DNA from: Gekko japonicus
Lineage: Eukaryota
Reading direction: 5' to 3'
Assembly (NCBI RefSeq): GCF_001447785.1
Contig: NW_015165350.1
Coordinates: 21,672-85,468 of the forward strand
DNA: 63,797 bases
Shown piece after piece: positions 44,401 through 47,400 of the stretch. Made by a program: the position numbers. Each line of letters begins with the position of its first letter. The first letter of the stretch is position 1.

Positions 44401-47400
44401 GTCTGTGAGAGGGTGGACATTATGGTTGGGAGTTAAATCTGAAAGGTGTCTTAAAAACCGATCAGGGTCCATCGTATTCATGCAGGTCCAGCTTCACTGC
44501 TTTACGGATTTGGATCCACTTTCGGAGGTTTGTCATCCAAGCCCCCCAGGAATGTGCGCTGAAAGAAAGGAATAGGTTGGTGGTGTTTGGGGGCTCTACT
44601 GGAACACTGCAAAAAGCAGCTCAAAGCAGGTGCAAGGAGAATGTGCTTTACCTGGTACTGGGATTTGTTCGTTGACTTTCAAAAGAATTGGAGGTTTAAT
44701 AAAAACTCGTGTAATCCCAGTTTTTCCCACCATTCTTAGCTGAGGGAAGACAGTACAGGACCTGGGTTTGTTAATGAAGGGGGGGGGGAGAATTACAACA
44801 AAGAAAGCAGCGGTGTCTGCAGCCCACTGGCCTTCACTTCCTAAGAGGGAGGATGGCTAGTAGGCAAAAAAGGAACTCTTCAAAAACAGCTCCCAGACCC
44901 TCCAATCACTGGCAACCATTTACAAGTAGATTTTAACATACAAGTAGGGTTTAATCCCAAGTGGACAGATGGGGCATCAGAGGACGCACACATAGCAAAG
45001 TCAAATGTAGGCATTGCAAGCAAAAGTGGGAACCAAAGAGGCTGTGCAGTGTTCCCTCTAAACTGTTGACTTGTGAGTAAAAAAAATTATGTTGTGAGCC
45101 AAAAAATCTACAAGAATAAAAGTTGTGAGCAAGCCTAATTTTTTAAAAAATTAAATTTCATTTTACAAACACAAAACGTACAAGCATGAAGGAAGGGAGG
45201 AAATAGATGGGGAGAGAGGAGGAAGGGAAGGAGGAAGGAAGCAGGGGAGAGGTGGAAAGAAAGGAAATAGATGGGGAGTGAAGAATGAAAGAAAGAGGTG
45301 GAAAGAAAGCAAATAGATGGGGAGATACAAAAGAAGGAAGAAAAAAGAAAGAGAGGGCCCCTCTAATGGCAGGTAGCCATTAGAATGTTCTGTTTGGCTC
45401 CCCCCCCCCTGCTTCCAAGTGGGGGGAGCCAAAGGGAACGCTGAGTTTCCCACTCTTTAAAGCCCATCAGCTGCTCCCTTTAAAGGGCGGGCACCTATTA
45501 GAGTGTTTTGTTTGCCCTCCCCCACTGAGGGGGTGATATGAGAGCATTGGAAGTTTGCAAGGTTAAGAATTTTTGATGTCCTGCTTAATTAGAATGTTTT
45601 CCTGATTGAACCGAAAGAATGTGGTTAATTTGTACTGGAAGGCAGTTCCATCCTTAGGAGAGCTTCAGCGAAACAAGGTTAGTGATAGCTGACTCACTTG
45701 TTGAGACTGGGACTGCGTCCAGAACCTTTTCATCAGAGACTATCGCTGGAAAGTCTTTGCTACTCAAAAGGACTGTTCCTCATGGCAATTCTTTAGCAAG
45801 GTCTTTTGTTCAAGTGTATATTGTTATATTGATGTGCAAGATAGTTTGTATTGAAGTCTATATTTAACTGAACGAAGAGCACTAATTATATCCAGTCACT
45901 ACAAGGAGAGGTACAGTTCTGGGGGTGGGAAATGAATCCTGTTTTTTTGTTTTGGACATCAGGCAGTGGTGGCAGCTGGAAAAGGGAAAGTTTGCCAGAA
46001 GCACCAGGAGCCGCTGAAGCTGTTCTGCAAGGACGACAAAGCCCTCATCTGTTTGGTCTGTGACCGATCCAGGGACCACAGAAATCACGAAACCCTTCCT
46101 CTTGAGGAGGCCTCCCAAGAGTACAAGGTAGGAAATCAAAAACATGGAGGATGATGAGGAAGAGCCCTGGATCCTCCCCTTCTTCTTGGTCTCCCCTTCT
46201 TGCTTCCTCCTTCCTGGCTAGGTGGCTCCCTTGGGCATTGCCTCCTTCCCCCCCCCCCTGCGCTGAGGCTAAAGCGGCTGTGTTAACATCTGACCACAGC
46301 CTATGCCCTGACCAAGCTAGGAGGGGGCAGCTGCCTGACTCCCCGCTTTTTAAAATTATTATTAAAGATTTTATTTTAATTTTTTTATAAAGACAAACAT
46401 CACGTAGACAAAACACACAAATACATAAATGTGGGGGGGGGGTTCAGTTACATAATAAATTTACATGCTTAGTTACTTCATACCATATTTGTTTTTCATG
46501 TTCCACCTTATGTTCTTACAAATTTTTTTTGCATATTTTAAATATAATTTTTGTAGTCTATAAAAGGTTATATATCTGTATACTTTATTGTATTCTTCAG
46601 TCCATTTCAAAATCTACACCATGTAGTTTCATACATACACAAGGGTTTACCTAAGTATCTAAATAGTAGGGGATTTCATTACCTTCTCAAATTACCTATT
46701 TAAATACCTCAATACTTGTTTTCCAAATTTCACCTTGTATTCTTACAATGATCTTTCACATATGTTTCAAAAAATAATTTTTATACTCTTTTGATAGATT
46801 TTCCGATGTTTCAACTCATTTATGTAATTTTGAACAACTGTATAATATCTATAATATTCAGACTTTTAGGAAATCTAGAGGGACTGTGTTTTCTCCCTTA
46901 TCCAAAAATTTGATGCTTGTGTGTTCTCTCTTATCCACAAAATTTTGGAGCTTTTCCATAGGATTTCATCCTCTTCTTCATTCTCTGATTTCTCCTCTTA
47001 AGTCTTAAAGTCTTAATTTTGTGAGTTTTCCCTTGTAGATGAAACACGTATATAGATGATAACCATCTATAATCAACTTTTAAAGTAGTTTGAGGTTCCG
47101 TATATTCTTTTTTCTCTCTTTGAATAAATATTTCATTTGCTGGTTCAATAATTCTATCTCTTGTCATTCTTTCATGGGGTCTCATGTTCAGTTCTTCAGT
47201 CAGTTTGTCTCTTTTTGGATATGTTTTGTAAGTCATATCAATTGGATAATAGACTTCATCTGTATCTTCTATATCCACAGAAATAAATGTCACATCAGTT
47301 TGCTCTTCCTTCTGATTGATGCTCTGCTGTAAGAGTAGCTCAAACTTAGGTCCCAGTTTTAACATACACACACCCACACATACATGCTGCTTTCCCTATT

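What the first reader, a model, noticed from the sequence alone, without database searches (positions are those of the whole stretch)
45963..46127. TRIM gene carries a second B-box2 on its own in-frame exon
Seen: intron 1 of the TRIM gene contains an intact B-box2 (CQKH...FCKDD..ICLVC...DH..H) with all zinc ligands. It has a pyrimidine-rich phase-0 acceptor and the usual QEYK|gt donor, is 165 bp long and frame-neutral, and diverges clearly from the first B-box. Known: class IV TRIMs normally encode RING plus one B-box2 in a single exon, and B-box2 drives higher-order assembly (e.g. TRIM5 lattices). Inference: the protein is RING-B2-B2-CC-B30.2, or B-box number is switched by splicing. The exon may derive from the 3' half of another paralog's first exon that acquired an acceptor.
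Basis: partly seen in the sequence, partly recalled or inferred. Interest (0 to 1): 0.75.

Follow-up and report, generated by a model that had tools for sequence, protein, structure and literature searches.

The report
Second B-box2 exon in gecko TRIM
A gecko immune-type TRIM ubiquitin-ligase gene carries a real, conserved extra exon for a second B-box2 zinc finger, a layout shared by many gecko paralogues but missed by the database model of this gene.

Summary
Window 45963-46127 is a 165-bp, phase-0 open exon with a pyrimidine-rich CAG acceptor and a GT donor. It encodes a B-box zinc finger (Pfam 3e-13) with all eight zinc ligands, 61.5% identical to the exon-1 box.

The window matches Gekko japonicus; I do not take it for human. 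The database model of this gene (P0097, 478 aa) fuses the two boxes into one hybrid through an intron with poor splice signals. The model of the neighbouring paralogue (P0013) does contain the exon.

In seven gecko species, 64 of 107 listed relatives of the exon and 78 of 90 listed relatives of exon 1 carry two close B-boxes, with the same junctions in the sequences read. The second box is the better conserved: ligands intact in 73/76 against 55/76, mean identity 0.79 against 0.62. The two box types fall into largely separate gecko-only clades.

Most likely the gene encodes RING, B-box2, B-box2, coiled coil, PRY/SPRY (533 codons), and the exon box is the canonical one next to the coiled coil. 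Splicing was not tested: no RNA data were available. Five full-text searches found no description of the layout. It is a new variant of a known kind, of moderate interest.

The parts
42067..42492 (+). Exon 1: start codon, RING finger and first (A-type) B-box2; donor AGG|gtgaga
   Evidence: Pfam finds zf-C3HC4_4 at residues 16-58 and zf-B_box at 95-134, E 4.1e-12. Splice context. Identical to P0097 residues 1-106.
45939..45962 (+). Acceptor region of the B-box exon: pyrimidine tract plus cag
   Evidence: Pyrimidine fraction 0.70 over -23..-4, against 0.8-1.0 for the gene's other acceptors. In-frame reading ...FGHQ|A recurs in read-through models P0108 (Heteronotia) and, more loosely, P0119 (Euleptes).
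45963..46127 (+). B-box exon: 165 bp, phase 0 at both ends, second (B-type) B-box2
   Evidence: Residues 13-55 are present in P0097. 78-92% identical to second boxes of other gecko proteins.
46128..46137 (+). Donor gtaggaaatc; similarity to the exon-1 donor region ends here
48360..48455 (+). Exon 3, 96 bp, start of the coiled coil
   Evidence: Exact match to P0097 from residue 143; splice sites.
49472..49702 (+). Exon 4, 231 bp, coiled coil
   Evidence: Exact match to P0097 from residue 175; splice sites.
50952..50974 (+). Exon 5, 23 bp
52256..52374 (+). Exon 6, 119 bp
54590..54622 (+). Exon 7, 33 bp
55868..56376 (+). Last exon with PRY and SPRY domains and the stop codon
   Evidence: Pfam PRY 6.8e-21 and SPRY 7.2e-18. 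Exact match to P0097 from residue 311. Acceptor read.
63197..63622 (+). Exon 1 of the neighbouring paralogue (RING plus A-type box). Its own B-box exon lies beyond the window end.
   Evidence: Pfam. P0013 starts with exactly this translation and continues with a B-type box.

Best explanation
The 165-bp segment is a genuine internal coding exon of a class IV TRIM gene annotated 'TRIM7-like'. The window matches Gekko japonicus database proteins exactly. Spliced between exon 1 and the first coiled-coil exon, it gives RING, B-box2 (A type, exon 1), B-box2 (B type, this exon), coiled coil, PRY/SPRY. The summed exon lengths are 1599 bases, or 533 codons.

The gene belongs to a large gecko subfamily in which this layout arose before the paralogues multiplied. 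The B-type box sits directly before the coiled-coil helix, the position of the single B-box2 in ordinary class IV TRIMs, and is under the stronger constraint. I infer that it does the usual B-box2 jobs of self-association and regulation of the RING.

The A-type box is an extra zinc module on a flexible linker between the RING and the canonical box. It evolves faster and has decayed in many paralogues. It may add an assembly interface or simply space the RING away from the coiled coil.

Shown here: the exon's integrity, its splice signals, its conservation, and its inclusion in annotated relatives. Inferred: that it is spliced into this gene's mRNA, and what each box does.
For: **Domain and ligands.** Pfam and the eight-ligand pattern. 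The nearest solved chains are B-box2 domains of TRIM5 (5k3q, 9.1e-12), TRIM41, TRIM21 and TRIM39.

**Splice signals.** They are comparable to the gene's other exons.

**Conservation confined to the exon.** DNA similarity to exon 1 is limited to the coding part plus 10 bases. dN/dS against the two A-type boxes in the window is 0.38 and 0.33 over 52 codons.

**Census of relatives.**
- Of the 120 listed relatives of the exon, 64 of 107 gecko rows from seven species have two boxes 45-70 residues apart. None of the 13 non-gecko rows does.
- Of the 120 listed relatives of exon 1, 78 of 90 gecko rows have two boxes 30-90 residues apart.

**Which box is conserved.** Ligands are intact in 73/76 second boxes against 55/76 first boxes. 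Mean pairwise identity is 0.79 against 0.62.

**Tree of 285 boxes.** 90 of 99 gecko second boxes plus 29 lone gecko boxes form a clade (support 0.886) with no first box and no non-gecko box. 72 of 76 gecko first boxes form another clade (0.854). The window's boxes fall inside these clades.

**Neighbouring paralogue.** Its model P0013 contains a B-type box after ...QENK.

**Structure.** AlphaFold2 was run on P0016, the closest tandem relative. Both boxes have block pLDDT of 77-83 and the same strand/helix pattern. The linker 139-149 is below 50. The helix of the second box runs on into the long helix 188-296.
Against: - No transcript evidence for this gene was available.
- The only database model of this very gene (P0097) does not use the exon whole.
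- All supporting proteins are automatic predictions, some flagged low quality or 'UNVERIFIED_CONTAM'. Prediction pipelines copy one another's architectures through protein homology.
- The donor matches only 4 of 6 consensus positions, and 43 of 437 AG sites in the intron have an equally pyrimidine-rich tract.
- One G. kuhli model (P0302) joins an A-type box straight to the coiled coil.
- The census samples were chosen by similarity to the query, so the proportions are not genome-wide frequencies.
- The functional roles of the two boxes are inference only. The column aligned with the tryptophan of the TRIM5 chain's CWLC turn is V or L in most second boxes, and W in 3 of 76.
Confidence: 0.8

Rival explanations
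1. The exon is a cassette. The gene makes both a two-box protein (533 codons) and a one-box protein by skipping the exon (478 codons), or by leaving out the exon-1 box through an upstream donor. B-box number would then be regulated by splicing.
For: Exon 1, the B-box exon and exon 3 are all phase 0, so either choice stays in frame. P0302 (G. kuhli, partial) lacks the B-type box. Gecko models such as P0095, P0100, P0101 and P0109 go from the RING linker straight into AVVAA and the B-type box. Heteronotia isoforms P0109 and P0110 differ in just this region. Heteronotia has a three-box model (P0272) beside two-box models with the same first-box position.
Against: The B-type box is the most conserved part of the N-terminus, which argues against frequent skipping. 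Only 1 of the 90 gecko rows (P0302) has an A-type box and no B-type box. The remaining 11 non-tandem gecko rows are long models with widely spaced or degenerate boxes, plus the hybrid P0097. In the window gene the only GT near the equivalent upstream position in exon 1 is a poor donor by my reading; I did not score it. No isoform data exist for this gene.
Confidence: 0.2
2. The segment is an unspliced relic of a deleted paralogue's first exon. It has stayed open by chance or through gene conversion from neighbouring boxes.
For: No RING-coding remnant lies upstream, so part of a first exon has indeed been lost. The region is a tandem cluster, with a paralogue 21 kb downstream. A stop-free run of 55 codons alone is not rare.
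Against: All eight ligands are kept, and dN/dS to the A-type boxes is 0.33-0.38. The same exon with the same ends occurs in dozens of paralogues in seven species and is better conserved than the exon-1 box. A clean acceptor sits exactly where similarity begins.
Confidence: 0.05
3. The database model P0097 is right. An intron from 42385 to 46019 joins the first third of the exon-1 box to the last two thirds of the exon box, giving a single hybrid B-box2.
For: The implied intron has GT and AG ends and keeps the frame and all eight ligands.
Against: The donor GTCTTC matches 2 of 6 consensus positions, and the acceptor tract is only 0.35 pyrimidine. The junction lies at homologous points of two similar boxes, the pattern expected when a one-box protein is laid over a two-box gene. 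The neighbouring paralogue and the close G. kuhli relative P0016 are modelled with two whole boxes.
Confidence: 0.03

Closest known systems
Class IV (RING, B-box2, coiled coil, PRY/SPRY) TRIM E3 ligases such as TRIM7, TRIM27/RFP, TRIM39, TRIM11 and TRIM5
   Same: Same domains in the same order. The exon plan after the B-box is the same, with 96-, 231- and 23-bp exons followed by a large PRY/SPRY exon. Databases name the gecko relatives TRIM7-like, TRIM39-like, TRIM11-like or RFP-like. The best solved-structure matches are the TRIM5, TRIM41, TRIM21 and TRIM39 B-box2 domains.
   Different: There are two B-box2 domains in a row, the second on an exon of its own. By recall (Reymond 2001; Sardiello 2008; neither read here), the textbook class has one B-box2 encoded together with the RING in exon 1.
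TRIMs with tandem B-box1 and B-box2, such as MID1/TRIM18
   Same: Two zinc-binding B-boxes lie between the RING and the coiled coil. The extra box sits where B-box1 would be.
   Different: Both gecko boxes have the type 2 ligand pattern (C-x2-H at the first pair) and are paralogues of each other, 58% identical on average within one protein. Neither is a type 1 box. The model shows a low-confidence linker between them, not a packed pair. The MID1 tandem structure is known to me only from a reference-list title seen.
Gecko tandem B-box2 'TRIM7-like' predicted proteins, e.g. P0008, P0010, P0013, P0016, P0017, P0018, P0028
   Same: The window gene has the same junction pattern, the same A-type and B-type box clades and the same downstream exons.
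   Different: None in architecture. The difference is that this gene's own database model (P0097) merges the two boxes.
Other squamate N-terminal duplications: Tiliqua P0273 (RING-B-B), Anolis P0282 and P0124 (RING-B-RING-B), Pogona P0275
   Same: B-box modules are repeated within one predicted TRIM.
   Different: The two Tiliqua boxes are nearly identical to each other, so the duplication is recent and separate. In Anolis the whole RING-plus-box unit is repeated, with boxes 142 residues apart. None of these boxes falls inside the gecko A or B clades (the two P0124 boxes were not in that tree).

Membership tests
TRIM / RBCC proteins, class IV | N-terminal RING finger | tested here: met
   zf-C3HC4_4 at 1.7e-12, residues 16-58 of the exon 1 translation
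TRIM / RBCC proteins, class IV | At least one B-box2 after the RING | tested here: met
   zf-B_box in exon 1 (4.1e-12) and in the 45963-46127 exon (3e-13)
TRIM / RBCC proteins, class IV | Coiled coil after the B-box | tested here: met
   Exons 3 and 4 match the coiled-coil part of P0097 exactly. In the model of the close relative P0016 this region is one helix, residues 188-296. No coiled-coil predictor was run.
TRIM / RBCC proteins, class IV | C-terminal PRY/SPRY (B30.2) domain | tested here: met
   PRY 6.8e-21 and SPRY 7.2e-18 in the last exon
B-box type 2, as opposed to type 1 | Ligand pattern C-x2-H-x7-C-x2-(C/D/H/E)-x4-C-x2-C-x3-6-H-x2-4-H (pattern recalled, from no call) | tested here: met
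   C11, H14, C22, D25, C30, C33, H39, H42. The best solved-structure matches include chains that the paper or my recall identifies as B-box2 domains (TRIM5, TRIM21).
Gecko tandem B-box2 TRIM7-like subfamily | Second box on a phase-0 exon that starts with AVVAA-like residues and ends with QEYK, placed between the A-type box and the coiled coil | tested here: met
   The exon structure itself was seen only in the window; for the relatives only the protein junctions are visible.
Gecko tandem B-box2 TRIM7-like subfamily | Exon box falls in the B-type clade and exon-1 box in the A-type clade | tested here: met
   Neither window box is among the outliers of the 0.886 and 0.854 clades.
Gecko tandem B-box2 TRIM7-like subfamily | The exon is included in mature mRNA of this gene | not testable with these tools
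   No RNA-seq, EST or gecko genome collection was available.
TRIM5-like lattice formers | B-box2 self-association residues: the salt-bridge pair E120/R121 (from a passage of PMC5533445 seen) and a tryptophan in the CWLC turn (its role is recalled) | tested here: inconclusive
   The columns aligned with the E and R of the TRIM5 chain's CERS motif are D/E in 69/76 and R in 58/76 second boxes, against G/S in 54/76 and R in 34/76 first boxes. The tryptophan column is V or L in most second boxes, W in 3/76. Assigning TRIM5 residue numbers to these columns is my inference.

The most novel reading that the evidence does not exclude
In geckos the B-box2 has become a free-standing cassette exon, and the number of boxes per protein now varies among paralogues. 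One box remains where the exon-1 box is decayed or left out, two is the common form, and one Heteronotia model has three. An expanding, probably immune, TRIM family would thus tune the valency or geometry of its higher-order assembly by adding, losing or skipping B-box modules. Separate duplications in a skink and in anoles hint that this has happened repeatedly in squamates.
Probability: 0.3. Interest if true: 0.65.

Novelty: new variant of a known kind. Interest (0 to 1): 0.45.

Why it matters
B-box2 is the least understood part of the tripartite motif. By recall, it drives TRIM5 lattice formation and holds the TRIM21 RING in check. A lineage in which dozens of paralogues carry two B-box2 domains, one conserved and one drifting, is a natural experiment. 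It could show which box functions depend on position next to the coiled coil and which tolerate change.

In practice, the database model of this G. japonicus gene appears mis-spliced. Homology-guided pipelines may collapse tandem boxes in other genes in the same way. The layout is visible in predicted protein sets. I found no description of it in five full-text searches.

Tried and rejected
- **RING remnant upstream of the exon.** A RING profile built from 48 tandem proteins found nothing above 0 bits in the six-frame translation of intron 1 (best E 0.38). The control on exon 1 scored 174.6 bits.
- **Other TRIM exons in the window.** tblastn with the gene's own exons found only exon 1, the B-box exon, the paralogue's exon 1 and one copy each of the coiled-coil and B30.2 exons. 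There is no buried second gene.
- **Close tandem boxes outside geckos.**
  - Of 41 multi-stretch rows among the 150 listed, 7 were already known.
  - I looked up 20 by name; 19 had names and one (P0131) did not and was dropped.
  - 14 were not looked up.
  - Among the 19, only G. kuhli P0126 has a close tandem. Rhineura P0138 has a 21-residue half-box.
  - The exon-1 search added Tiliqua as a true case, Pogona as a duplicated box plus coiled-coil start, and Mauremys as a fragment scoring 19 that I do not count.
- **Literature.** Five full-text searches and passages of three papers (PMC5533445, PMC10776941, PMC3137616) gave nothing on double B-box2 TRIMs in reptiles. In the G. japonicus genome paper, 'trim' refers to alignment trimming software only.
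- **Not done.**
  - The spliced model was not joined or searched; exons were searched one by one and only their lengths were summed.
  - No DNA of other gecko genomes could be reached. The open genome collection holds bacteria and archaea and was not used.
  - Paper supplements were closed and were not needed.
  - No complex prediction or fold search was run.
  - The N runs (16016-16569, 28548-28558, 58995-59092, 62625-62819) were left as they are.
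Full report
**What is there.** Window 45963-46127 translates without a stop into 55 residues. Pfam recognises a B-box zinc finger at residues 8-47 (E 3e-13, 50.1 bits, cut-off 24.1). The eight zinc-ligand positions read C, H, C, D, C, C, H, H. That is the type 2 pattern as I recall it. The nearest solved chains are B-box-containing chains of TRIM5 (5k3q, 9.1e-12), TRIM41, TRIM21 and TRIM39.

The exon is preceded by a pyrimidine tract (0.70 over -23..-4) and cag. It is followed by gtagga, which matches 4 of 6 positions of GTRAGT. 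The gene's other sites score 0.8-1.0 and 5-6 of 6.

It lies in the 5.9-kb interval between exon 1 (42067-42492: RING plus a first B-box) and the 96-bp exon at 48360-48455. All three exons are phase 0.

**More than chance.** DNA similarity between the exon and exon 1 runs from 45968 to 46137 (74.7%, E 1e-27) and to the paralogue's exon 1 from 45981 to 46137 (78.3%). It stops at the acceptor and 10 bases after the donor. Ungapped identity in the 60 bases on either side is 22% and 30%. dN/dS against the two exon-1 boxes in the window is 0.38 and 0.33 over 52 codons.

A B-box profile finds this one place in the six-frame translation of the intron (94.8 bits; every other hit is below 0 bits). A RING profile finds nothing, while its control on exon 1 scores 174.6 bits. 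So the box stands alone, with no trace of the RING half of a former first exon.

**Where the window comes from, and the existing annotation.** I take the window for Gekko japonicus, not human.

The database protein P0097 ('PREDICTED: tripartite motif-containing protein 7-like', 478 aa) is the model of this gene:
- Its first 106 residues equal the exon 1 translation.
- Its residues 100-142 equal residues 13-55 of the B-box exon.
- Each later exon matches exactly.

The model therefore jumps from inside the first box to the homologous point of the second box, making one hybrid box. The only GT and AG that fit imply an intron from 42385 to 46019. Its donor GTCTTC matches 2 of 6 consensus positions and its acceptor tract is 0.35 pyrimidine. 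I read this as an artefact of laying one-box proteins over a two-box gene. That is inference.

P0013 (501 aa, from a contig of the same length as P0097's) begins with the exact translation of the paralogue exon 1 at 63197-63622. It continues with AVVAA and a B-type box. So the 63197 paralogue has the same exon, outside the window.

**The exon is a family trait of geckos.** I searched exon by exon. The joined spliced model was neither built nor searched.

*Search with the B-box exon.* It gave 264 hits among 277 candidates, 120 of them listed, all from reptiles. I built a B-box profile from those hits. With it, 64 of 107 gecko rows have two boxes whose starts lie 45-70 residues apart:

| Species | Rows with two close boxes |
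|---|---|
| Euleptes europaea | 14 |
| Sphaerodactylus townsendi | 13 |
| Gekko japonicus | 10 |
| Heteronotia binoei | 9 |
| Gekko kuhli | 8 |
| Eublepharis macularius | 6 |
| Paroedura picta | 4 |

None of the 13 non-gecko rows (Alligator, Rhineura, Podarcis, Zootoca, Lacerta, Liasis) does. Pfam confirmed two zf-B_box stretches in 8 of 10 proteins scanned. The other two were P0097 and P0095. The eight tandem sequences read and P0013 share the junction pattern, with small variations...QEN[RK] | AVVAA... and ...QEYK | D... (P0013 continues with K).

*Search with exon 1.* It gave 707 hits among 893 candidates, 120 of them listed. Of 90 gecko rows, 78 have two boxes 30-90 residues apart. The 12 exceptions are long models with widely spaced or degenerate boxes (two of them under 700 residues), the hybrid P0097, and P0302, a partial G. 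kuhli model that joins an A-type box directly to the coiled coil.

*Caveat.* All these proteins are automatic predictions, and the samples were picked by similarity to the query. The counts show that the layout is common in geckos. They do not give its genome-wide frequency.

**Which box is which.** I compared 75 database proteins with two close boxes, plus the window:

| Measure | Second (B) box | First (A) box |
|---|---|---|
| All eight ligands kept | 73 of 76 | 55 of 76 |
| Mean pairwise identity | 0.79 | 0.62 |

The two boxes within one protein are 0.58 identical on average.

I built a maximum-likelihood tree of 285 box segments:
- 90 of 99 gecko second boxes and 29 lone gecko boxes form one clade (support 0.886) with no first box and no non-gecko box.
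- 72 of 76 gecko first boxes form another clade (support 0.854).
- The window's three boxes fall where expected.

So the duplication preceded the multiplication of the genes. In 63 of 64 comparisons, non-gecko boxes are on average closer to the B type than to the A type (0.65 against 0.58). It could equally reflect slower change in B, and part of the sample was chosen by similarity to B.

Gecko models with a single B-type box almost always carry the AVVAA-like lead-in. Without their loci I cannot tell whether RING and box are contiguous there or spliced. Two models that read into the intron, P0108 (Heteronotia) and P0119 (Euleptes), show upstream residues like the window's in-frame ...FGHQ before the exon. 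This suggests that the acceptor is conserved.

**How it most likely works.** AlphaFold2 was run on P0016, the closest tandem relative: a G. kuhli protein 86% identical in exon 1 and 85% in the B30.2 exon. The input was an alignment of 48 tandem proteins. Mean pLDDT was 72 and pTM 0.39.
- Both boxes have the same strand-strand-helix-strand-helix pattern, at block pLDDT of 77-83.
- The linker 139-149 is below 50.
- The last helix of the second box runs on into the long helix 188-296.

The B-type box therefore takes the place of the single B-box2 of ordinary class IV TRIMs, against the start of the coiled coil.

A passage of PMC5533445 says that an E120-R121 salt bridge holds the TRIM5alpha B-box2 dimer together. 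By my reading of the alignment, those residues are the E and R of the TRIM5 chain's CERS motif; the numbering is my inference. At those two columns the B type has D/E in 69/76 and R in 58/76. The A type has G/S in 54/76 and R in 34/76. The tryptophan column of the TRIM5 chain's CWLC turn is V or L in most B boxes. I recall that this tryptophan matters for TRIM5 trimers. A TRIM5-like lattice is therefore not established.

My reading, as inference: B is the working B-box2, handling self-association and RING regulation. A is an extra, loosely tethered module under weaker constraint. It is intact in this gene but decayed or left out in many paralogues.

**Rivals.**
- *Regulated cassette splicing.* It remains open, since all junctions are phase 0 and isoform-like models exist.
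- *Dead relic.* It is unlikely given the conservation.
- *The hybrid database model.* It is unlikely given its splice signals.

**Beyond geckos.** A profile-free scan of 1.84 billion representatives gave 1532 hits, 150 of them listed. Of 41 multi-stretch rows, 7 were known already. I looked up 20 by name; 19 had names, and the one without was dropped. 14 were left unchecked.

Among the 19, only G. kuhli P0126 has a close tandem, and Rhineura P0138 has a half-box. The rest are repeats of the whole RING-plus-box unit (Anolis sagrei P0124, boxes 142 residues apart) or models whose boxes lie 127 or more residues apart, in some with a second RING between them.

The exon-1 search added three cases:
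- A skink protein (Tiliqua P0273) with two nearly identical boxes in tandem, hence a separate and recent duplication.
- Anolis carolinensis P0282, with RING-B-RING-B.
- A Heteronotia model (P0272) with three boxes.

**Novelty.** The layout is visible in predicted protein sets. Five full-text searches and passages of three papers turned up no description of tandem B-box2 TRIMs in reptiles. I rate it a new variant of a known kind. For this gene it also amounts to a correction of the current model.

**Limits.**
- No RNA data were available, so inclusion of the exon in this gene's mRNA is inferred.
- No other gecko genome DNA could be reached.

Noticed in passing
42385-46019: The database model of this gene (P0097) implies an intron between homologous points of the two boxes. 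Its signals are poor: the donor matches 2 of 6 consensus positions and the acceptor tract is 0.35 pyrimidine. It looks like a homology-guided mis-splice.
   Followed up: yes
42067-42492 versus 63197-63622: The two paralogous first exons differ with dN 0.071 and dS 0.073 (ratio 0.98 over 142 codons). There is thus no sign of purifying selection between them. Upstream and intron-start similarity extends over 41691-42577 versus 62823-63708 (81.5%).
   Followed up: partly
9914-11854 (-), 25863-26384 (+), 34519-35310 (+): Long open frames full of C2H2 zinc-finger repeats with HTGEKPY-type linkers, the largest 646 residues. The TRIM genes therefore sit beside a zinc-finger gene cluster.
   Followed up: no
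57413-58927 (+), 39109-39636 (+), 59751-60218 (-): Retroelement-like open frames, by eye only: one looks like an endonuclease and runs into the N run at 58995-59092, and another looks like a reverse-transcriptase fragment. No domain search was run on them.
   Followed up: no
7281-7829 (+), 26482-27129 (+), 41443-41610 (-): The same short translated motif (CELAHSFLASGSHIFV...) recurs at three places, so a dispersed repeat lies close to the TRIM promoter region.
   Followed up: no
16016-16569, 28548-28558, 58995-59092, 62625-62819: Runs of N. The last lies just upstream of the paralogue's first exon. All were left as they are.
   Followed up: no
related proteins P0272, P0273, P0282, P0124, P0275: Other squamate TRIM models repeat N-terminal modules: three boxes in Heteronotia, an independent tandem in the skink Tiliqua, RING-B-RING-B in two Anolis species, and a duplicated box plus coiled-coil start in Pogona.
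   Followed up: partly
related proteins P0084, P0091, P0092, P0121: The B-type box, with its AVVAA-like lead-in, also follows a quite different kind of first exon (another RING and linker type). This suggests exon shuffling between TRIM subfamilies, or models that run across two genes.
   Followed up: no
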